Assembly (NCBI GenBank): GCA_019322895.1
Contig: JAHWHZ010000001.1
Span: forward strand, 459,528-523,527
Direction of reading: 5' to 3'
Length of the DNA stretch: 64,000 nt
Source: Candidatus Woesearchaeota archaeon
GTDB taxonomy: Archaea > Nanobdellota > Nanobdellia > Woesearchaeales > ARS49
The notes beneath the pieces are model-generated. The model did not search any database and had not been told where the DNA came from. It saw only the letters and a list, made by a program, of their open reading frames with translations. Positions 2,668 through 59,526 of this stretch are shown here, in pieces. How positions within the stretch are numbered: the stretch's first letter is position 1; every line of letters starts with the position of its first letter. The position numbers and the translations under genes were made by a program.

Positions 2668-3537
2668 ATGGAGTTATGGATACTGTTAGTATTGGTATCA
2701 GCAGTGTTAGGAGCGATAAGCCTTCTGTTCAAGAAAAAGGCATTGAAGAATGAGCATACTTCAGAATACTTGTCTTCTTTCAAGATATTAGAGCTTCTGA
2801 TTGTATTGCTGTTTGCTCCTTTTATTGTTTTTAAGATTCCCTTGACTGTTGCTGCATTCATATTTTTGATTTCATTGACAACTTCAGTTGCCTTGACATA
2901 TATCTCAAGATCCTACAGGCATGTTGATTTGTCTGTTGTCGCTCCATTAAGCAATCTTACTCCTTTATTTCTTGTGGTGCTTGCTTTTTTCTTGTTGGGC
3001 GAGCATGTAACATCAAAACACATGATAGGCATAGGCTTGCTTCTTTTTGGAACATATTACTTGGAGTCAGAGCACAGCGCAGGACACTGGCTCTCCCCGA
3101 TTATCACATTATTTCGAACAAGAAACATTGCATTCCTTTTGTTTGGTTTTTTCTTGTCGGCAATAATTGCAATAGGCGAGAAATTCCTCATAGGAATCAT
3201 ATCACCATTCACCCTTCTCTTTTATCATTACTGCTTCCAGACATTCTGTTTCCTGGCAATCACCCTGTTCTTTTACGGAGGATTCAAGGATATTGTCCAC
3301 AGCTATAAGACATCTTGGAAATGGCTGTTAGGCAATGCCTTTTTTGCCAATCTTTCTAACCTGACTTATTTTTTCGCTATTTCTATGACTTTTGTCAGCC
3401 TTGCTGCTCCAGTAAAAAAGATATCCACTTTATTTGCAGTGGTTTTAAGTGGCAAGTTTTTTAAGGAACAAAGGATATTCCACAAGGCATTGGCATGCGG
3501 TATCATGCTTGCAGGTGTTTTTGTTATCGCGATATAA
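2668..3537 (+). CDS. polytopic membrane protein, EamA/DMT-superfamily-like transporter
   Basis: 289 aa with about 10 predicted hydrophobic helices arranged as a duplicated 5-TM pattern. Confidence 0.45.
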   Translation: MELWILLVLVSAVLGAISLLFKKKALKNEHTSEYLSSFKILELLIVLLFAPFIVFKIPLTVAAFIFLISLTTSVALTYISRSYRHVDLSVVAPLSNLTPLFLVVLAFFLLGEHVTSKHMIGIGLLLFGTYYLESEHSAGHWLSPIITLFRTRNIAFLLFGFFLSAIIAIGEKFLIGIISPFTLLFYHYCFQTFCFLAITLFFYGGFKDIVHSYKTSWKWLLGNAFFANLSNLTYFFAISMTFVSLAAPVKKISTLFAVVLSGKFFKEQRIFHKALACGIMLAGVFVIAI

Positions 3538-3538
3538 A

Positions 3539-4366
3539 ATGGCATCTTTAAAACAAGCACTAAAGAAAAAATTGACAAAGAAAGAGCTGTCTGCAATGCA
3601 CTCCAGCTTTGATGTAGTTGGAAGCATAGCGATTATAGAGATTCCTGATGAACTAAAGAAAAAAGAGAAGATAATTGCCCAGACAATGATTGGTTTGTTC
3701 AAGCCTGTCAAGACAGTTGTCAAGAAAAGCGGCATTCATTATGGAAAATACAGGAGGCAGAAGTTAAAGGTTCTTGCAGGTGAAAAGAAAAAAGTTGCTG
3801 AATACAAGGAATCTGGTGTTCAGATGAAAGTTGACTTGGAAAAATGTTATTTCAGTTCAAGATTAGGCACAGAAAGACTGCGGATCGCAAAGCAAGTCAA
3901 GCCAAAAGAAAAGATTTTAGTGATGTTTTCAGGCGTTGCTCCTTATCCTTTGGTTTTAGCAAGGAATTCAAAGCCAGAAATCATCTGCGGCATTGAACTT
4001 AATCCAGTTGCGCACAAATTTGCTGAGGAGAATGTCAAGCTTAACAAGATGCAGGATAAGATAAAGCTGTACAAGGGCGATGTTGTCAAGGTTGTTCCTA
4101 AGCTAAAGAAGAAGTTTGACAGGATTCTTATGCCAATGCCAAAGACATCAATTACATTTCTGGAAACTGCTTTCAAGGCAGCGAAAAGAGGCGCAATCAT
4201 TCATTTCTATACTTTTGGAAGGGAGAAAGAGTTCAAGGAAATAAGGGACAAGATTAAAGCAGAGTGCAAGAAACACAAAAAGAAGTGCAGGATTCTTAGA
4301 ACAGTAAAGGCAGGCCATTATGCCCCAGGCGTTTATAGGGTGTGTGTGGATTTCAAATTGCAATGA
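3539..4366 (+). CDS. Trm5/Taw2 (Met-10+) family tRNA methyltransferase
   Basis: SAM-binding motif MFSGVAPYPL and an NLPK-like motif LMPMPK. The start is set at ATG 3539, immediately after the upstream stop. The tracker's 3449 start would overlap the previous gene by 89 nt. Confidence 0.6.
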   Translation: MASLKQALKKKLTKKELSAMHSSFDVVGSIAIIEIPDELKKKEKIIAQTMIGLFKPVKTVVKKSGIHYGKYRRQKLKVLAGEKKKVAEYKESGVQMKVDLEKCYFSSRLGTERLRIAKQVKPKEKILVMFSGVAPYPLVLARNSKPEIICGIELNPVAHKFAEENVKLNKMQDKIKLYKGDVVKVVPKLKKKFDRILMPMPKTSITFLETAFKAAKRGAIIHFYTFGREKEFKEIRDKIKAECKKHKKKCRILRTVKAGHYAPGVYRVCVDFKLQ

Positions 4367-22955: not shown

Positions 22956-23014
22956 GCTCTTGAGAATTACTGGTTCATTTAAAAAGCTTTTGTATCTTTG
23001 TATGTTTAGCAATA

Positions 23015-23072
23015 TTTCCAATAGCGCCTTGCGAAGTCTTGTGGCATAAATGCGGAATAACATAAATCTGGA
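23015..23072. repeat. intergenic repeat element, copy B (core CCAATAgcGCCTTGCGAAGT...AATGCGGA...CATAAATCTGGAAT)
   Basis: Roughly 60-nt direct homology to 46237-46296. Shares the GCCTTGCGAAGT core with 29459-29476 and with the reverse complement of 52788-52805. Confidence 0.7.
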
Positions 23073-23178
23073 ATAAAAGCGATTAAAAAAGTAGATGTAG
23101 CGCGCTATTGGTTAGCACCTGGTGCAGTCTTTTTAAACATAAGGTTTATAAAGCCTCTGCATTGCTTTATTAACTAAA

Positions 23179-24322: not shown

Positions 24323-24694
24323 ATGTATTCAGAAAAAGTGCTTAAGCATTTCAAGAAACCGCACAATGTAGGCAAGATTGAAGATGCTGACGGAATTGGA
24401 ACAGTAGGCAACAGGGCCTGCGGCGATGTCATGAAATTATACATCAAGGTAGAGGATAACAAGATTGTTGACATAAAGTTTGAGACAATGGGGTGTGCAG
24501 CTGCCATAAGTTCTTCTGATATGTTATGTGAAATGGCTAAGGGAAAAACTATCGAGGAGGCCTTAAAAATTACTAAAGACGATTTAATTAAGGAGTTAGA
24601 AGGATTGCCGCCAGTAAAAATTCATTGTTCCGTACTGGCTGTCGACGCATTACATGAAGCGATTAAAGAATACAAACAAAAACAAAAGAAATAA
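24323..24694 (+). CDS. iscU: Fe-S cluster scaffold IscU/NifU N-terminal domain
   Basis: 123 aa with three conserved Cys (GNRACGD, MGCAAAIS, KIHCSVLA). Confidence 0.85.
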   Translation: MYSEKVLKHFKKPHNVGKIEDADGIGTVGNRACGDVMKLYIKVEDNKIVDIKFETMGCAAAISSSDMLCEMAKGKTIEEALKITKDDLIKELEGLPPVKIHCSVLAVDALHEAIKEYKQKQKK

Positions 24695-24757
24695 TTTCTA
24701 CTAGCCACTGGACATTCTCTCGCAGTCTATTTAAAGACTAAATGCTCGAATATTATG

Positions 24758-24840
24758 AAAAGAGAATACGCAGAACTGCTAAATAATGTTTTTCGGTCTG
24801 CGACGCGAAAATCAATTACGCAGTTCTGCTCAGGCGTTCT
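24758..24840. repeat. long imperfect inverted repeat/hairpin upstream of the endonuclease gene
   Basis: AAAAGAGAATACGCAGAACTGC ... GCAGTTCTGCTCAGGCGTTCTCTTTT. Perfect 10-bp arms GCAGAACTGC/GCAGTTCTGC plus flanking AAAAGAGA/TCTCTTTT arms, with a loop of about 45 nt. Confidence 0.6.
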
Positions 24841-24915
24841 CTTTTCTCGAAAAAGTTGAGCTTTCCTATCAACTGCGGAAATCTCAACTACAAGATTGGG
24901 ATTTCGAGGTGTACT

Positions 24916-25785
24916 ATGGCTTTTAAAAAAGGAAACGTTCCTTGGAATAAAAATAAAAAAGGAGTTATGCCGATTCCTTGGAATAAAGGATTATCTAAAA
25001 ATAATTCTAAAATTGCTGAAATTTGTCAAAGAATCAGTCAAACTAAAAAATCACAATATCTGCATGGCGAACTTGTTGTTTGGAATAAAGGAAAAAATAA
25101 ATTTATTGATAAAAGATTAGCACAGCAAGGAAAAAAATCTTCTGAAACTAAGAAAAGAAGATACACAGCAGGTGACTTAGTTATTTGGAATAAAGGTAAG
25201 AAAAATGTACAAACTCCTTGGAATAAAGGCAGAGAAGGACTGCAAAAAGCATGGAATAAAGGATTAAATAAAGAAAATAATTCATTTATTCGTAAACAAG
25301 CAGAGTCTTTGAAAGGCAGCTGGGATGTAAAGTATGGAATACAGCATGCAGAGAAAAGAAAAGCAAAAGTTCGAGCGGCTCGTTTAAAGCAAACCTTTAA
25401 TAAAATCAGTAGCATAGAACTGACGACTAAAAAAATTCTTTTAAGTATAGGATGCAAAGAAAAACAAAGTATCAATAACTGCAAATCTTGGCTAGATTTT
25501 GCCTGTCAGCAATCTATTGAAGGAATTTGTGTGCCTGATTTCGTTTTTCCTCTGCAAAGTTTAATTATAAATTGTGATGGTGATTATTGGCATGGAAATC
25601 CTAAGCTCTTTAATGAATTAGATTACATTCAGAAAAAAACAAGAAAAAGAGATATTAGACAAAATGAACTACTTAAAGAAAAAGGCTGGCTTGTTCTGCG
25701 CTTCTGGGAACACTTCATTAAAGAAAACGAAGAAAGATACGCGAACGATTTAGCGAATATATTAGAGATACAATTAACTTTATAA
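24916..25785 (+). CDS. homing-endonuclease-like protein: six NUMOD3-type WNKG DNA-binding repeats fused to a Vsr/DUF559-type endonuclease domain
   Basis: Repeats VPWNKNKKG, IPWNKGLSK, VVWNKGKNK, VIWNKGKKN, TPWNKGREG, KAWNKGLNK. The C-terminus VPDFVFPLQSLIINCDGDYWHGN...RKRDIRQNELLKEKGWLVLRFWEHF matches the Vsr catalytic core. ATG 24916 has GAGGTG 4 nt upstream, and the tracker's TTG at 24856 is an alternative start. Confidence 0.6.
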   Translation: MAFKKGNVPWNKNKKGVMPIPWNKGLSKNNSKIAEICQRISQTKKSQYLHGELVVWNKGKNKFIDKRLAQQGKKSSETKKRRYTAGDLVIWNKGKKNVQTPWNKGREGLQKAWNKGLNKENNSFIRKQAESLKGSWDVKYGIQHAEKRKAKVRAARLKQTFNKISSIELTTKKILLSIGCKEKQSINNCKSWLDFACQQSIEGICVPDFVFPLQSLIINCDGDYWHGNPKLFNELDYIQKKTRKRDIRQNELLKEKGWLVLRFWEHFIKENEERYANDLANILEIQLTL

Positions 25786-25808
25786 ACTCGATTTCTTTTT
25801 CTAGCATT

Positions 25809-26654
25809 ATGATCATAATTCGCTTTGCTGAAATCGGCCTTAAAGGCAGGAACCGGGCTTTCTTTGAAAAAACTCTTGTGAATAACATAAAATCTTGCCT
25901 TGATGCTCATAAAATAATATACAAGAACATCAAAAGGCCCATGGGCAGGGTCTTGATTGCCACAGATGATTCTTGCAAATGCTTGGAATGTGTTTTTGGT
26001 ATTGCCTCTTTTTCAGATGCAGTCAATGCAGGCTTTAACATGGAGTCTGTAAAAAAAGAGGCTTTGAAATTAGCAAAAGATCTTACTCCGAAAAAATCTT
26101 TTAGGATAACCTGCCAAAGACTGGACAAGAGATTTCCCATGACTTCTCAGGAATTTGATGTAGAGCTTGGCGCTTTTATCCAGGAAAAGACAAATGCAAA
26201 AGTCAAGATGAAAGGGTTTGATTTGAATATCCGGGCAGAGATCATTGATAATTTTGTTTACTTGTTCACTGAGAAGATCAAAGGCCTTGGAGGCCTGCCA
26301 GTTGGTGTTGAAGGAAAAGTTATTGTTCTTCTTGAGAATGAAGCTTCCTTGCTTGCAGGATTGTTCATGATGAAGCGCGGATGCCATATAATTCCAGCAG
26401 CTTTTAAAGAGATGGATATCTCTTTGCTGCAGAAATATGCTTTTGGCACAAGGGTTGAACTGAAGATAATCAAAAATATTTCAGATATTGATGCATTGGC
26501 TAAAGAGCATAAGGCAAAAGCAGTGGCTGTCAGTGATTTATTGGACACGATGAAAGAATATGATATGAATACCAAGGTGTTCAGGCCTTTGATTGCTTAT
26601 GAACCTAAAGAGATTGCAGAGGAATTAAATGGTTTCAGACAAAGAGTTTGTTAA
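25809..26654 (+). CDS. ThiI-like THUMP-domain protein with degenerate PP-loop (predicted catalytically inactive tRNA-binding module)
   Basis: N-terminal ferredoxin-like plus THUMP. The region GKVIVLLENEASLLAGLFMMKRGCHII aligns to the ThiI [25 protein letters not shown], but SGGxDS is replaced by ENEAS. The protein is about 100 aa shorter than ThiI and has no rhodanese domain. Confidence 0.55.
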   Translation: MIIIRFAEIGLKGRNRAFFEKTLVNNIKSCLDAHKIIYKNIKRPMGRVLIATDDSCKCLECVFGIASFSDAVNAGFNMESVKKEALKLAKDLTPKKSFRITCQRLDKRFPMTSQEFDVELGAFIQEKTNAKVKMKGFDLNIRAEIIDNFVYLFTEKIKGLGGLPVGVEGKVIVLLENEASLLAGLFMMKRGCHIIPAAFKEMDISLLQKYAFGTRVELKIIKNISDIDALAKEHKAKAVAVSDLLDTMKEYDMNTKVFRPLIAYEPKEIAEELNGFRQRVC

Positions 26655-27495
26655 GAAGTTTGAGCAGAAAGTAAAAAATACAATAAAGAAATTCAAGCTG
26701 ATTAGTCCTAAGGACAAGATTCTTGTCGCGGTTTCAGGAGGAAAAGACAGCACAACTGTTTTGTATCTGTTAAATAAGTTTGGCTATGATATTGAGGCAG
26801 TGACAGTTGATGTTGGTGTGGGTGATTATTCTGAAGTTAATCTGAAAAATCTGAAGGCTTTTTGTGCAGAGAAAAATATCAAGCTGCATAAGCTGTCTTT
26901 TATAAAAAATTTTAATTGTTCTATTGATCAGATACAGCCCTTGCTGAAGAAAAAAGGAATTAATCTAAGATCCTGTGCTGTTTGCGGTGTTCTCAGAAGA
27001 TATTTAATCAACAAGTTTGTGAGAAAGGCCAAGGCAACAAAAGTTGCTACAGGCCACAATGCTTCTGATGAGGCTCAGGTTTACTTGATGAATGTTTTAA
27101 AGAACAAGCAGGAATTGAATTCACGATTAGGCCCTATGCCTGGCTTAATAAGAAGCAAATTGTTTGTTCCAAGAATAAAGCCATTGTATCTTATCACAGA
27201 AGATGATGTTGAGCGCTATTCAAAGATAATGAATTTTCCTGTCAAGTATGGAAGATGCCCCTGCGCTCATGATGCTTATAGGAATTATATCAGGAATTTC
27301 TTGAATGATTACAAGAAGACAAATCCAGATGTTCACTTGAATATTGTCAGGAATTTCTTGAAAGAATTGCCTGGATTAAAAAAAAGATTTGCAACAAAAA
27401 AAAAGCCGAATGTTTGTGCAAAGTGCGGAGAGCCTGCCAAAGAAAAGATATGCAGGACCTGCCAGATATTATCTCATCTTAAGAAATGCCTTTAA
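26629..27495 (+). CDS. TtuA/TtcA/NcsA-family PP-loop tRNA thiolase with C-terminal Zn ribbon
   Basis: PP-loop SGGKDS, Fe-S ligand candidates CAVCG and CPCAHD, C-terminal CAKCGEPAKEKICRTC. Overlaps the upstream THUMP gene by 26 nt. Confidence 0.65.
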   Translation: MVSDKEFVKKFEQKVKNTIKKFKLISPKDKILVAVSGGKDSTTVLYLLNKFGYDIEAVTVDVGVGDYSEVNLKNLKAFCAEKNIKLHKLSFIKNFNCSIDQIQPLLKKKGINLRSCAVCGVLRRYLINKFVRKAKATKVATGHNASDEAQVYLMNVLKNKQELNSRLGPMPGLIRSKLFVPRIKPLYLITEDDVERYSKIMNFPVKYGRCPCAHDAYRNYIRNFLNDYKKTNPDVHLNIVRNFLKELPGLKKRFATKKKPNVCAKCGEPAKEKICRTCQILSHLKKCL

Positions 27496-57678: not shown

Positions 57679-57818
57679 TCCACTGGTCACTGGACATCTT
57701 CTCGTAGCGTATTTAAACAATTTTAGCCACCCTTATTCTATCGCAAACCTCATCTCCTGGTTTAATCTTTCTTTTTCCAGGGGATTGAAACAAGATGCGA
57801 AAGCAAGAGGTGAAAAAA

Positions 57819-58085
57819 ATGAACAAACCTGAAAAAAAATACAAGGCAGGGGCAATAAGCGCAACTGTCTGGAAAAATGAAGGGCAAAAAAATGGAAAAA
57901 CTTTTGCTTTTCATACAATCTCGATTGGAAGAAACTATAAAGACAAGGATGGTGAGTGGAAGAACTCTTCTTCTTTGAGGCCTGCTGATTTGCCAAAAGC
58001 TGCACTGGTGCTTAACAAGGCTTATGAGTATCTGATAATGAGCTCAGCTGAAGAAGGAGTGGTGGAAGAGGAGCTTGCTGCATGA
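57819..58085 (+). CDS. PC4/Sub1-like small ssDNA-binding protein, paralog 1
   Basis: KKYKAGAISATVWKNEG...KDKDGEWKNSSSLRPADLPKAALVLNKAYEYL fits the PC4 C-terminal domain pattern. The start is set at ATG 57819, with AGAGGTGA 5 nt upstream. Confidence 0.45.
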   Translation: MNKPEKKYKAGAISATVWKNEGQKNGKTFAFHTISIGRNYKDKDGEWKNSSSLRPADLPKAALVLNKAYEYLIMSSAEEGVVEEELAA

Positions 58086-58243
58086 TTTCCGAAAAAAGAA
58101 CCGGATTTTTCGGTTATCCCTGTTTTTTAGGCAGGTATTTCGAAATAATTCCAGATTCTGTATTGCTTTTTCCGGAAAAATCTCAGCAAGGCATAATTAA
58201 AATGCCAGCCACCTGTTTTACAAAAATAAAAAAGGTGGTTTGC

Positions 58244-58474
58244 ATGGAAAAAAATACACCAGAAAAAAAGTTCAGGGCAGGAGCAATAAGCGCTACTGTC
58301 TGGAAAAACCAAAGCAAGGAAGGAAACGAGTTCAGCAGCGTATCTTTTGAAAAAGGATACAAGGATGCTGCAGGCGAGTGGAAATCAACCAACCACTTGA
58401 ACGTGAATGACCTGCCAAAGGCTTTGGTTGTGATCGGCAAGGCATTTGAGCACTTGTCACTTAAAGAGGCTTAA
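58244..58474 (+). CDS. PC4/Sub1-like small ssDNA-binding protein, paralog 2
   Basis: MEKNTPEKKFRAGAISATVWKNQSKEGNEFSSVSFEKGYKDAAGEWKSTNHLNVNDLPKALVVIGKAFEHL. The start is set at the internal ATG 58244 after GGTGG. Confidence 0.45.
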   Translation: MEKNTPEKKFRAGAISATVWKNQSKEGNEFSSVSFEKGYKDAAGEWKSTNHLNVNDLPKALVVIGKAFEHLSLKEA

Positions 58475-58509: not shown

Positions 58510-59526
58510 ATGACAAAAAAACAAAAAGGTGATAATATGGAGCAAGAACTTGAACAGCCAGAAGTAGTTGAAAAGAAAGTACAATCCTTGGACCAGCTTC
58601 CAGGAGTAGGTCCTGCAACAATTGAAAAGCTTAACAATGCAGGATATTCTGACTTGATGAGCATTGCGGTAGCGACACCAGGCGAGCTTGTGGGCGCTGC
58701 TGAGATGTCAGAAGCAACTGCAAAGAAAGTTATTGCAATCGCAAGGGCAAATCTTGAGATGAATTTTGAGAGCGGAGATGATTTGCTGCAGAAAAGAGAG
58801 CAGATAACCAAGCTGAGCACTGGAAGCGAAGAGCTGGATAAATTATTTGGCGGTGGTGTTGAGTCAGCTGCAATCACAGAGGCTTTTGGACAGTATGGTT
58901 CTGGAAAAAGCCAGATAGCCCACGTTCTTGCTACAAGATGCGTGCTTCCTGTTGATAAGGGAGGTGCTGGCGGTGTTGCAGTATTCATTGATACAGAAGG
59001 AACTTTCAGGCCAGAGCGTATTGTTCAGATGGTCAAAGGTGTTGATAAGGATGCAGATCCCCAGGAATTCTTGAGAAACATAAAGGTGGCAAGGGCCCTT
59101 AATTCAGACCATCAGATGCTTCTTGCAGACAAGATTGCAGATTTGATCAAGAATAAAGGAGTGGATGTAAAATTAGTCATTGTTGATTCCTTGACATCGC
59201 ATTTCAGGGCAGAGTATATTGGCAGAGGAACCTTGGCAGAAAGGCAGCAGAAGCTTAACAAGCACATGCATACCTTGATTAGGCTTGCAGACAGGCATAA
59301 TGTTGCTGTTTATGTGACAAATCAGGTGATGTCAAAGCCAGACATGTTTTTCGGAGACCCTACACAGGCAATTGGAGGCCATGTAGTTGGCCACAACTCA
59401 ACTTACAGGGTTTATCTCAGGAGAGGGAAAAAAGGCACGCGGGTTGCCAAGATGATTGACGCCCCAAATCTTGCAGAAGATGAGGCAGTATTCATGATAG
59501 ACGAAGCAGGCATAAGAAATGCCTGA
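58510..59526 (+). CDS. radA: DNA repair and recombination protein RadA
   Basis: N-terminal HhH (LPGVGPATIEKLNNAGY), Walker A GQYGSGKSQ and an RecA/Rad51 core. An oligo-T tract follows directly after the stop. Confidence 0.85.
   Translation: MTKKQKGDNMEQELEQPEVVEKKVQSLDQLPGVGPATIEKLNNAGYSDLMSIAVATPGELVGAAEMSEATAKKVIAIARANLEMNFESGDDLLQKREQITKLSTGSEELDKLFGGGVESAAITEAFGQYGSGKSQIAHVLATRCVLPVDKGGAGGVAVFIDTEGTFRPERIVQMVKGVDKDADPQEFLRNIKVARALNSDHQMLLADKIADLIKNKGVDVKLVIVDSLTSHFRAEYIGRGTLAERQQKLNKHMHTLIRLADRHNVAVYVTNQVMSKPDMFFGDPTQAIGGHVVGHNSTYRVYLRRGKKGTRVAKMIDAPNLAEDEAVFMIDEAGIRNA

What the first reader, a model, noticed from the sequence alone, without database searches (positions are those of the whole stretch)
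24758..25785. Homing-endonuclease-like gene (NUMOD3 x6 plus Vsr-type nuclease) inserted between iscS-iscU and the tRNA-thiolation genes, preceded by a long inverted repeat
The six W-N-K-G repeats are of the nuclease-associated NUMOD3 type used by free-standing homing endonucleases for DNA binding. The C-terminus carries the Vsr/DUF559 catalytic core (CDGDYWHG ... RD ... GWLVLRFWE). The gene splits an otherwise coherent sulfur-relay cluster (iscS, iscU | HEG | thiI-like, ttuA-like). An approximately 80-nt imperfect hairpin (24758-24840, 10-bp perfect core) lies in its 5' region. This looks like a selfish mobile endonuclease, unusual for a streamlined archaeal genome, or a domesticated site-specific nicking enzyme.
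Basis: partly seen in the sequence, partly recalled or inferred. Interest (0 to 1): 0.65.

Follow-up and report, generated by a model that had tools for sequence, protein, structure and literature searches.

The report
Mobile endonuclease cassette with shared leader
This is most likely a selfish "homing endonuclease" gene cassette that some closely related Woesearchaeota carry between two sulfur-metabolism genes and others lack, and its hairpin-containing upstream region turns out to be a portable promoter and leader shared with unrelated endonuclease genes elsewhere in these genomes.

Summary
There is an intact 289-aa ORF (ATG 24916 to 25785) with six W-N-K repeats. Its C-terminal domain is Vsr/DUF559-type by Pfam, by a PDB profile search and by a predicted-fold match to Vsr and the homing endonuclease I-Bth0305I. 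A ~90-nt hairpin (24757-24846) lies upstream.

The ORF and 221 nt of upstream DNA form a 1,114-bp insert. Relatives L006 and L008 have iscU and the thiI-like gene overlapping (ATGA). L005 and L007 hold a GNAT gene in that slot. Four other lineages carry the ORF there under purifying selection (dN/dS 0.12-0.20), one of them with a nonsense codon. The ORF is AT-rich (GC3 0.22 against 0.33-0.44). The wider family is large, multi-copy in viral contigs and found in varied contexts.

The main new point is that the hairpin belongs to a ~230-nt module: CCACTGGACA, a TATA-like box, hairpin 1, a covarying hairpin 2 and a ribosome-binding site. The same module precedes at least five other genes at other chromosomal sites. 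Three of those gene types are confirmed LAGLIDADG endonucleases. The promoter part of the module also recurs upstream of the host radA cluster.

Verdict: a free-standing EDxHD-type homing endonuclease cassette, which is a known kind. The leader shared across endonuclease families appears undescribed. Direct NUMOD3 membership was not met.

The parts
24695..25808 (+). Whole insert (1,114 bp) relative to the empty iscU/thiI junction: leader, endonuclease ORF and 23-nt tail.
   Evidence: In L006 and L008 the iscU stop overlaps the thiI ATG (AAAAAATGATTAT). In the window, L001, L004 and L003 the insert sits exactly between the last iscU sense codon and the thiI ATG.
24705..24714 (+). CCACTGGACA, an upstream promoter element and putative transcription-factor site.
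   Evidence: Near-invariant in all 12 aligned leaders. CCACTGGWCA occurs only twice in the window, against 0.12 expected.
24728..24735 (+). TATTTAAA, an archaeal TATA-like box. The transcription start is predicted near 24757 (inference).
   Evidence: TATWTAAA is conserved at a fixed 13-nt spacing from CACTGGACA. The block of near-invariant sequence starts about 25 nt downstream.
24757..24846 (+).
   Evidence: Arms found and fold. 94.5% of cells pair across 10 leaders, against 39-51% in slid controls. Most pairs are invariant and only 1 is compensatory. The 3' arm is deleted in L003. A 56-nt apical insertion is present in L015.
24854..24889 (+). Hairpin 2 (GTTGAGCTTTCC / GGAAATCTCAAC).
   Evidence: 4 of 10 pairs show compensatory double changes across leaders.
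24878..24905 (+). Alternative hairpin. The 3' arm of hairpin 2 pairs with TTGGGATTTC, which abuts the ribosome-binding site.
   Evidence: Inverted repeat I5. It is chosen in the minimum-energy fold. A regulatory role is inferred.
24906..24911 (+). GAGGTG, a Shine-Dalgarno-like site 4 nt before the ATG.
   Evidence: Sequence. Conserved as GAGGTG or GGAGG in all leaders.
24916..25785 (+). Endonuclease ORF of 289 aa.
   Evidence: dN/dS is 0.12-0.20. GC is 0.313 and GC3 0.221, against 0.33-0.44 in neighbours.
24916..25320 (+). N-terminal W-N-K-G / NUMOD3-like repeat region, the putative DNA-binding arm.
   Evidence: Six WNK motifs. Helices at residues 31-49, 66-85 and 123-133 in the model. BLASTP against the NUMOD3-bearing region of P0075 gives 8e-13. 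This is the fastest-evolving part, 73-80% nt identity to L004.
25360..25770 (+). Vsr-like (EDxHD/DUF559) nuclease domain, residues ~149-285.
   Evidence: TIGR00632 aligns residues 149-266. Foldseek gives 1cw0 TMt 0.61, 3r3p 0.68 and 3hrl 0.68. Family positions E168, D208, G222 and H226 are invariant and D246 is nearly invariant.
25779..25786 (+). TTTATAAA at the cassette's 3' end, overlapping the ORF stop. Possibly a TATA box giving a leaderless thiI-ttuA transcript (inference).
   Evidence: TAACTTTATAAAC is conserved in all four occupied lineages, including the distant L003, and lies 30 nt before the thiI ATG.
24323..24694 (+). iscU, the left flank and the candidate location of the cleavage target (inference).
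   Evidence: NifU_N E=1.8e-48. A 49%-identical homologue (P0006, L039) also lies directly 3' of an iscU gene whose other neighbours differ.
25809..26654 (+). ThiI-like gene (ThiI_fer + THUMP), the right flank.
57680..57717 (+). Second copy of the promoter part of the leader (CCACTGGTCACTGGACA-N13-TATTTAAA), upstream of two small unknown proteins and radA.
   Evidence: nhmmer E=7.8e-6. Exact pattern match, 2 found against 0.02 expected. Conserved at the same host locus in L036 and L038, and partly in L037.

Best explanation
The region 24695-25808 is a free-standing homing-endonuclease cassette in a Woesearchaeota (DPANN) chromosome.

The protein has an N-terminal arm of W-N-K-G / NUMOD3-like repeats, inferred to bind DNA. 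Its C-terminal nuclease is Vsr-like and of the EDxHD type, as in I-Bth0305I.

The proposed mechanism is inferred by analogy with intronless homing in phage. The enzyme cuts a site in or near the 3' end of iscU in genomes that lack the cassette. Recombinational repair from a cassette-bearing copy then copies the cassette into the iscU|thiI junction.

The cassette carries its own expression signals. Upstream is a ~220-nt module: CCACTGGACA, a TATA-like box, a 5'-terminal 90-nt hairpin, and a second hairpin that covaries. The 3' arm of that second hairpin can instead pair next to the ribosome-binding site, which suggests translational throttling. At the 3' end is a TATA-like box that could restore expression of the downstream thiI-ttuA genes.

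The upstream module is portable. It also precedes LAGLIDADG-type endonuclease genes inserted between other housekeeping genes. Its promoter half matches the host promoter upstream of the radA cluster.

Shown here: fold and motifs, insertion polymorphism, purifying selection, atypical composition, the shared leader, and covariation in hairpin 2. Inferred: cleavage, the target site, the transcription start and the regulatory role.
For: (1) Nuclease. DUF559 scores above its cut-off. The family profile hits Vsr at 1.6e-14, DUF559 3hrl at 9e-12 and I-Bth0305I 3r3p at 7.5e-11. The AF2 model has pLDDT 84.9, above 90 in the C-terminal domain. Its top Foldseek hits are Vsr, I-Bth0305I and 3hrl, with TMt 0.61-0.68. 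E168, D208 and H226 are invariant and D246 nearly invariant in 59 relatives, and all are present here. This matches the EDxHD motif and the 'N-terminal NUMOD + C-terminal Vsr-like' architecture described in PMC3239194 and PMC2677866.

(2) Insertion polymorphism. L006 and L008 have overlapping iscU and thiI. L005 and L007 have a GNAT gene in the slot. The window, L001/L002, L004 and L003 have the ORF. On the host-gene tree the carriers are not monophyletic, so at least two gain or loss events are needed.

(3) A homing-endonuclease life-cycle signature. The gene is intact and under purifying selection, with dN/dS 0.12-0.20. One lineage, L004 (identical to L017), has a single nonsense codon.

(4) Foreign composition. 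GC3 is 0.22 against 0.33-0.44 in neighbours.

(5) Family behaviour. There are 3,654 50%-identity clusters at E<=1e-3. 509 stretches of viral contigs encode relatives, with at least 4 copies in one 168-kb viral contig. Contexts are varied and include virus-like ones. A 49%-identical homologue again sits next to iscU, but with different neighbours.

(6) Leader. A 26-nt motif from the leader finds 10 metagenome loci. Two are this cassette and eight precede other genes. Those genes are LAGLIDADG by Pfam (L014, L018, L021), by NCBIfam intein-endonuclease similarity, or by fold (the L023 type matches I-Tsp061I at TMt 0.71 and I-DmoI at 0.65-0.68). They lie between other housekeeping genes such as gatD|gatE. 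Hairpin 2 has 4 of 10 compensatory pairs. Hairpins upstream of free-standing Vsr-like and GIY-YIG endonuclease genes, and control elements carried in with the gene, are documented in PMC2677866.
Against: - No biochemical evidence of cleavage or homing exists, and the target site is unknown.
- The gene is syntenic in four lineages, including one as distant as ~60% amino-acid identity. Its divergence tracks that of its neighbours. That pattern is also what a vertically inherited host gene would show.
- Pfam NUMOD3 is not matched by this protein or its close orthologues.
- Hairpin 1 is almost invariant, so its pairing is not supported by covariation. Four leaders carry an A.C mismatch at one stem position and two carry one at another. 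L003 lacks the 3' arm altogether yet keeps an intact ORF.
- Only one cassette lies in the 64-kb window.
- Two of the five other leader-linked gene types (L015 and L016/L022) have no confirmed LAGLIDADG assignment.
Confidence: 0.78

Rival explanations
1. Domesticated host gene. A Vsr-like or NUMOD DNA-binding nuclease or regulator has been retained for a cellular function such as repair, recombination or regulation of the adjacent tRNA-thiolation genes. It is inherited vertically and lost in some lineages.
For: The gene occupies the same slot in four lineages, with dN/dS 0.12-0.20, comparable to neighbours at 0.05-0.27. Its divergence tracks that of its neighbours. The promoter motif is shared with the host radA cluster.
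Against: Equally close relatives have a precise empty site or another gene in the slot. One lineage has a nonsense allele. GC3 is far below that of neighbours. Relatives are abundant and multi-copy in viral contigs. The leader is shared with LAGLIDADG endonuclease genes inserted elsewhere. The gene has no functional link to Fe-S or tRNA thiolation.
Confidence: 0.12
2. A Vsr-type very-short-patch repair nickase, or a restriction/defence nuclease, as database names such as 'very short patch repair endonuclease' and 'DUF559' suggest.
For: Weak matches to TIGR00632 vsr (8e-10), to Pfam Vsr and to PADLOC 'Vsr Type II nicking endonuclease' (E=0.017).
Against: All scores are far below the curated cut-offs: 39 against 97.85 bits, and 17.6 against 27 bits. 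The Vsr His/Cys-rich segment FTHGCFWHHH is replaced by CDGDYWHGN (alignment). No cytosine methyltransferase or restriction-modification partner flanks the gene, whose neighbours are iscU and thiI-like. The N-terminal repeat arm is not a feature of Vsr.
Confidence: 0.04
3. Concerning the hairpin only. The long inverted repeat acts at the DNA level rather than as an RNA structure. It would be two copies of a palindromic operator (GCAGAACTGC and GCAGTTCTGC, about 50 bp apart) just downstream of the transcription start, bound by a repressor.
For: Each core is itself a near-palindrome, GCAG-WW-CTGC. The 5' arm is invariant in 12 leaders, while the 3' arm carries mismatches and is absent in L003. 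No covariation supports stems P1 or P2.
Against: 94.5% of cells pair, against 39-51% in slid controls. The apical stem has one compensatory pair (C-G to U-A). A 56-nt insertion in L015 falls exactly in the apical loop, as expected for an RNA hairpin. The neighbouring hairpin 2 clearly covaries.
Confidence: 0.3
4. The hairpin region is an independent element that merely lies next to the ORF. It could be a small non-coding RNA gene, a miniature inverted-repeat transposable element, or the terminator of the iscSU operon.
For: The hairpin is a stable structure with z = -5.35. It has inverted termini resembling a miniature transposable element.
Against: In all 10 metagenome hits and all orthologues the element sits at a fixed distance between a promoter and the start codon of an endonuclease-type gene, and no solo copies were seen. 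It is absent from empty sites. No Rfam family matches. No terminator-like site was found. A short ORF within the leader shows non-synonymous-type substitutions (alignment).
Confidence: 0.06

Closest known systems
EDxHD (Vsr-like) homing endonucleases: I-Bth0305I and the free-standing Vsr-like endonuclease genes of 'fractured genes' (Dassa et al. 2009, PMC2677866; Taylor et al. 2011, PMC3239194)
   Same: The domain order matches, with an N-terminal NUMOD-type DNA-binding region followed by a C-terminal Vsr-like nuclease. The E, D, H and D catalytic positions are conserved. The profile hits the 3r3p sequence at 7.5e-11 and the fold matches at TMt 0.68. The gene is a free-standing insertion between conserved genes, has a hairpin in its 5' UTR and brings its own control elements.
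   Different: The host is an archaeal (Woesearchaeota) chromosome rather than a phage. The insert lies between two genes, not inside a gene, intron or intein. The N-terminal repeats are W-N-K-G / NUMOD3-like, whereas I-Bth0305I has two NUMOD2 helix-turn-helix units. The 230-nt leader has an archaeal-type promoter and is shared with LAGLIDADG genes. Activity is untested.
Free-standing phage homing endonucleases with regulated expression (T4 seg/mob genes; mobE of Aeromonas phage Aeh1, whose ribosome-binding site is sequestered by a hairpin, as cited in PMC2677866)
   Same: The gene is inserted between conserved genes. A hairpin lies at or next to the ribosome-binding site. In the LAGLIDADG leaders a small stem holds GGAGG, and in the EDxHD leaders an alternative pairing abuts GAGGTG. 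The inferred mode of spread is intronless homing.
   Different: The elements share no sequence similarity. Here one near-identical leader serves several nuclease families. The regulation is only predicted.
E. coli Vsr (very short patch repair endonuclease; PDB 1cw0)
   Same: It is the best structural and profile match for the catalytic domain. Positions equivalent to D51, H69 and D97 are conserved.
   Different: Scores fall below the family cut-offs. The His/Cys-rich FTHGCFWHHH segment is absent. No methyltransferase partner is present. There is an extra 145-aa repeat arm.
Archaeal LAGLIDADG homing endonucleases (I-DmoI, I-Tsp061I)
   Same: The other genes that carry the same leader fold like these enzymes or match them.
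   Different: The known archaeal examples are encoded in introns or inteins. The genes found here are free-standing, lie between protein-coding genes and have their own promoter and leader. They are unrelated in sequence and fold to the window ORF.

Membership tests
EDxHD / Vsr-like homing endonucleases | C-terminal catalytic domain with the Vsr-like fold | tested here: met
   Profile against PDB: 1cw0 1.6e-14 and 3r3p 7.5e-11. Foldseek: 1cw0, 1vsr, 3r3p and 3hrl are the top four hits, probability 0.99-1.0, TMt 0.61-0.68.
EDxHD / Vsr-like homing endonucleases | Conserved E, D, xH and D catalytic residues | tested here: met
   E168, D208 and H226 are invariant and D246 is at least 90% conserved in 59 relatives. 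All are present in the window protein. The profile-to-Vsr alignment covers the Vsr segments containing D51, H69 and D97; the residue numbering was mapped by hand.
EDxHD / Vsr-like homing endonucleases | N-terminal NUMOD-type DNA-binding region | tested here: inconclusive
   There is no Pfam NUMOD hit for this protein. 35 of 59 relatives with the same architecture match NUMOD3. The N-terminus aligns to the NUMOD3-bearing region of P0075 at 8e-13.
EDxHD / Vsr-like homing endonucleases | Presence/absence polymorphism at a defined site in otherwise collinear genomes | tested here: met
   Occupied in the window, L001/2, L003 and L004. Empty in L006 and L008. A different gene is present in L005 and L007.
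EDxHD / Vsr-like homing endonucleases | Site-specific cleavage of the cassette-free allele, and homing | not testable with these tools
   This requires a biochemical or genetic assay.
Vsr mismatch-repair endonuclease (TIGR00632 / PF03852) | Score above the curated family cut-off | tested here: not met
   TIGR00632 scores 39 bits against 97.85. PF03852 scores 17.6 bits against 27.
Vsr mismatch-repair endonuclease (TIGR00632 / PF03852) | Association with a cytosine-5 DNA methyltransferase | tested here: not met
   The immediate neighbours are iscU and a thiI-like gene in all occupied loci. The wider genome was not examined.
NUMOD3 (PF07460) | Match to the Pfam model at or above the gathering score | tested here: not met
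   No match even at E<=10 for the full protein or the N-terminal 145 aa. The orthologues P0001, P0002 and P0005 also fail to match.
DUF559 (PF04480) | Match above the gathering score | tested here: met
   32.2 bits against 20.6, E=1e-7, residues 208-282.
Known RNA families (Rfam 15) | Covariance-model match of the leader | tested here: not met
   No hit at gathering thresholds across the whole window. The only hit at E<=10 in 24650-24960 is a sub-threshold CyaR match, E=0.29 and 19.9 bits against 47.
Anti-phage defence systems (PADLOC) | Significant match to a defence-system component | tested here: not met
   The only hit is PDLC03397 Vsr at E=0.017 and 13.3 bits.

The most novel reading that the evidence does not exclude
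Woesearchaeota carry a portable ~230-nt expression module. It has a promoter with a CCACTGGACA element shared with the host radA/recombination gene cluster, followed by a two-hairpin 5' UTR. The module is exchanged among unrelated free-standing homing endonuclease genes of the EDxHD and several LAGLIDADG types. It would tie endonuclease expression to the host's recombination programme, so that the nuclease is made when repair by homologous recombination, and therefore homing, is possible.
Probability: 0.3. Interest if true: 0.65.

Novelty: new variant of a known kind. Interest (0 to 1): 0.5.

Why it matters
Free-standing homing endonuclease genes are well documented in phage, but little is known about them in archaeal chromosomes, especially in the reduced genomes of DPANN archaea.

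This locus provides a clean natural experiment, with empty, occupied, decaying and alternatively occupied alleles of one junction among close relatives.

It also reveals a single, highly conserved promoter and leader that serves endonuclease genes from unrelated nuclease families. That points to modular exchange of regulatory DNA between selfish elements, and to a possible regulatory link with the host RadA cluster. Both ideas can be tested directly.

On the practical side, proteins annotated as 'DUF559' or 'very short patch repair endonuclease' in DPANN genomes are probably mostly mobile endonucleases. The leader motif is a simple handle for finding more of them.

Tried and rejected
- Pfam NUMOD3 on the full protein and the N-terminal half at E<=10 gave no hit.
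- Rfam at gathering thresholds on the whole window, and at E<=10 on the leader, gave nothing usable.
- No tRNA or tmRNA was found in the window.
- A tblastn search for further copies of the ORF family in the window found none. A search for further full leaders, allowing 3 mismatches, also found none.
- The leader motif was absent from viral contigs.
- The bacterial-type promoter and terminator scan was uninformative for an archaeon, and no terminator-like site was found.
- PADLOC gave no defence-system assignment.
- A conserved upstream peptide in the leader (ATG at 24755) was considered and rejected. Substitutions fall at codon positions 1 and 2, the frame relative to the endonuclease varies, and the predicted transcription start lies inside that ATG (alignment).
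- Target-site duplication at the cassette ends (CTAGC on both sides) was considered. It is not consistent across orthologues and was dropped.
- A co-conversion tract around the cassette was sought by sliding identity to L004. Only a local peak over the iscU 3' end appeared, which is not decisive.
- The flanking genes of the LAGLIDADG cassettes were searched for in the window to test for empty sites. None is present.
- Sequence searches for the L015 and L016/L022 proteins, and for the two small proteins upstream of radA, gave no assignment.
Full report
**1. What is at the coordinates**

The + strand carries an ORF that runs to the stop at 25785. The mechanical start is TTG 24856. ATG 24916 is preceded by GAGGTG (24906-24911) and is the start used by all orthologues, which gives 289 aa.

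W-N-K motifs lie at residues 10, 22, 56, 91, 102 and 113.

The upstream inverted repeat is real. Nested arms lie at 24757-24766/24837-24846 (10 of 10), at 24770-24784/24815-24829 (perfect core GCAGAACTGC/GCAGTTCTGC) and at 24787-24795/24806-24814. A second hairpin lies at 24854-24866/24877-24889. Folding 24750-24925 as RNA gives -54.9 kcal/mol with z = -5.35.

The neighbours are iscS, iscU, a ThiI_fer+THUMP protein and a TtuA-like PP-loop protein. The organism is a Woesearchaeota (DPANN) archaeon. The closest homologues and syntenic loci are Woesearchaeota MAGs, and a window protein is 100% identical to one from an NCBI Woesearchaeota assembly.

**2. The protein**

The C-terminal ~135 residues match DUF559 above the Pfam cut-off and match Vsr weakly.

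A profile of 59 relatives hits the sequences of Vsr (1cw0, 1.6e-14), a DUF559 structure (3hrl) and the catalytic domain of the homing endonuclease I-Bth0305I (3r3p, 7.5e-11). An AlphaFold model has pLDDT 84.9, above 90 throughout the nuclease domain. Foldseek returns exactly these structures as its top four hits.

E168, D208, G222 and H226 are invariant in the family, and D221, D223, W225, D246, R262 and W264 are nearly so. This is the EDxHD signature described for I-Bth0305I and for the metagenomic Vsr-like homing endonucleases. Those enzymes also have NUMOD-type DNA-binding motifs at the N-terminus and the nuclease at the C-terminus (PMC3239194, PMC2677866).

The protein is not a bona fide Vsr. 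Its scores are far below the curated cut-offs, and the His/Cys-rich Vsr segment is replaced.

**3. The repeats**

Pfam NUMOD3 does not match this protein or its close orthologues. However, 35 of 59 relatives with the same architecture do match NUMOD3, with a best E-value of 1.3e-48. The window N-terminus also aligns with the NUMOD3-bearing region of one of them.

In the model, helices follow three of the WNKG motifs. I read WNKG as the linker between NUMOD3-like helices. This subfamily seems to retain about three degenerate units plus three bare linkers.

This region evolves fastest, at 73-80% nucleotide identity to L004 compared with 83-90% for the nuclease domain.

**4. Is it an insertion?**

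Yes. The three closest homologues all lie between iscU and the thiI-like gene.

A scan of species-representative genomes with the ThiI-like protein found further Woesearchaeota loci. In L006 and L008 the iscU stop overlaps the thiI start (AAAAAATGATT). In L005 and L007 a 162-aa GNAT acetyltransferase fills the slot instead. These genomes are as close to the window as the carrier L001 is, at 73-82% identity over concatenated iscS, iscU, thiI and ttuA compared with 83%.

On the host tree the carriers (window + L004 + L001, and the distant L003) are separated by non-carriers, so at least two gains or two losses are required. Relative to the empty site, the insert is 24695-25808.

**5. Selection and decay**

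The ORF is under purifying selection, with dN/dS 0.12-0.20 against 0.05-0.27 for neighbours. Its divergence roughly tracks that of its neighbours.

L004 (identical to L017) has a single in-frame TAA at codon 70.

The ORF has GC3 of 0.22 against 0.33-0.44 in the flanking genes.

Together with the empty sites, this fits the invasion, maintenance, decay and loss cycle of homing endonuclease genes better than it fits a housekeeping role.

**6. Family behaviour**

- The family has 3,654 50%-identity clusters at E<=1e-3, but only 5 at E<=1e-30.
- Named hits come from Woese-, Pace-, Aenigm- and Nanoarchaeota.
- 509 stretches of viral contigs encode relatives, with at least four copies in one 168-kb viral contig.
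- Two relatives lie in virus-like gene arrays, and one lies beside PD-(D/E)xK, UvrD and restriction-modification genes.
- A 49%-identical homologue (L039) again lies immediately 3' of an iscU gene whose other neighbours differ. A 51%-identical one (L040) lies elsewhere.

The recurring link to iscU suggests, as an inference only, that the target lies in the conserved 3' end of iscU.

**7. The hairpin belongs to a portable leader**

The iscU-to-ORF spacer is far more conserved than synonymous sites.

A 26-nt motif from the spacer found 10 metagenome loci. Two are this cassette. Eight carry the same ~230-nt element in front of different genes.

The element consists of:
- CCACTGGACA, then a 13-nt spacer;
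- TATWTAAA;
- about 20 nt later, an invariant GAAAAGAGAACACGCAGAACTGC... that opens hairpin 1;
- hairpin 2;
- GGAGG or GAGGTG, and the ATG.

The downstream genes fall into five types. Three are LAGLIDADG endonucleases:
- L014/L019 and L018/L021 match PF14528. L014 also resembles intein endonuclease domains.
- The L023 type gives a model with pLDDT 92 (predicted for P0242, its 84%-identical homologue) that matches I-Tsp061I and I-DmoI.

The other two types (L015 and L016/L022) show LAGLIDADG-like motifs by eye only.

These cassettes lie between other housekeeping genes, for example gatD|gatE and tatD-like|radical-SAM-like. Some overlap the downstream gene.

No copy of the leader occurs in empty sites, in viral contigs or elsewhere in the window.

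**8. Structure evidence for the leader**

Hairpin 2 has compensatory double substitutions at 4 of 10 pairs.

Hairpin 1 pairs in 94.5% of cells, against 39-51% for slid controls. It is nearly invariant, has only one compensatory pair, and carries A.C mismatches at two stem positions (in four and in two of the ten leaders). L003 lacks its 3' arm, and in L015 a 56-nt insert sits in its apex. A DNA-level role therefore cannot be excluded, such as two GCAG-WW-CTGC operators just after the start site.

In the LAGLIDADG leaders a short stem holds the GGAGG. In the EDxHD leaders the 3' arm of hairpin 2 can instead pair immediately 5' of GAGGTG. This resembles the hairpins that sequester ribosome-binding sites of phage homing endonuclease genes, and the 5'-UTR hairpins reported for 15 of 16 free-standing endonuclease genes in PMC2677866.

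The conserved TTTATAAA at the cassette's 3' end, 30 nt before the thiI ATG, could drive a leaderless thiI-ttuA transcript. That too is an inference.

**9. Link to a host promoter**

The promoter half of the leader recurs once more in the window, at 57680-57717 (nhmmer E=7.8e-6; pattern found twice against 0.02 expected). It lies upstream of two small uncharacterised paralogous proteins followed by radA, and downstream of RPA-like and YdjM-like genes.

The motif is conserved at that host locus in relatives. These include L036, which comes from the same MAG as the cassette-free L007.

The endonuclease cassettes may therefore use a host promoter type associated with recombination genes. This rests on one host locus and is a hypothesis.

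**10. Verdict**

This is a free-standing EDxHD-type homing endonuclease cassette. The gene itself is a new member of a known kind. What appears undescribed is the near-identical promoter and leader module shared across unrelated endonuclease families in an archaeal lineage. Literature searches found no report of it. Cleavage activity, the target site and the regulatory mechanism remain to be shown.

Noticed in passing
window 57680-58474 (promoter 57680-57717; ORFs 57819-58085 and 58229-58474; radA 58510-59526): The promoter half of the endonuclease leader recurs upstream of two small paralogous proteins of about 88 and 81 aa. Neither matches Pfam, NCBIfam or PDB sequences. They sit between RPA-like/YdjM-like genes and radA. 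The 5' UTR there also holds a conserved hairpin (CTCCTGG...CCAGGGG). The small protein has 269 homologues, mostly from Woesearchaeota.
   Followed up: partly
window 25809-27495: The 'ThiI-like' protein has the ferredoxin-like and THUMP domains, but its C-terminal part lacks a PP-loop motif. Its gene overlaps that of a TtuA/NcsA-like PP-loop protein. This may be a split arrangement in which tRNA binding and adenylation/thiolation are carried by separate proteins.
   Followed up: partly
L005 3506-3994 and L007 ~3516-4003: In two relatives the same iscU|thiI slot holds a GNAT acetyltransferase gene whose start overlaps the iscU stop (in L007 its stop also overlaps the thiI-like start). The sister genome L006 has the slot empty. 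This junction seems to be a hot spot for gene gain and loss.
   Followed up: partly
L015 2184-2397: This copy of the leader has a 56-nt insertion exactly in the apical part of hairpin 1. The insertion is itself hairpin-forming (AAAAAAATCCTTCGGATTTTTT).
   Followed up: no
L003 5907-6001: The most distant cassette has a 61-nt deletion that removes the 3' arm of hairpin 1 and the 5' arm of hairpin 2. What remains is the arrangement in which the CUC-containing segment pairs with the ribosome-binding site (fold). The ORF is intact.
   Followed up: partly
L039 449-1831: A 49%-identical homologue of the ORF lies directly downstream of a longer iscU (156 aa) in a different gene neighbourhood, with a DUF523-like gene upstream and a dehydrogenase-like gene downstream. 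Its spacer is a short 63 nt and lacks the long leader.
   Followed up: partly
L044, L055, L057, L071 (IMGVR_UViG_3300032046_005540, 168 kb): One viral contig carries at least four separate relatives of the ORF's nuclease domain.
   Followed up: no
window ~22996-23145, and ~26401 compared with L004: The spacer between the L34e gene and iscS cannot be aligned between the window and its closest relative L004. L004's thiI-like gene carries an insertion of about 150 nt (332 against 281 aa).
   Followed up: no
L014 3133-3187, L019 1550-1604, L023 9329-9345: The 3' ends of the LAGLIDADG genes overlap the start of the downstream host gene by 17-55 nt. The same was reported for phage free-standing endonuclease genes in PMC2677866.
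   Followed up: no
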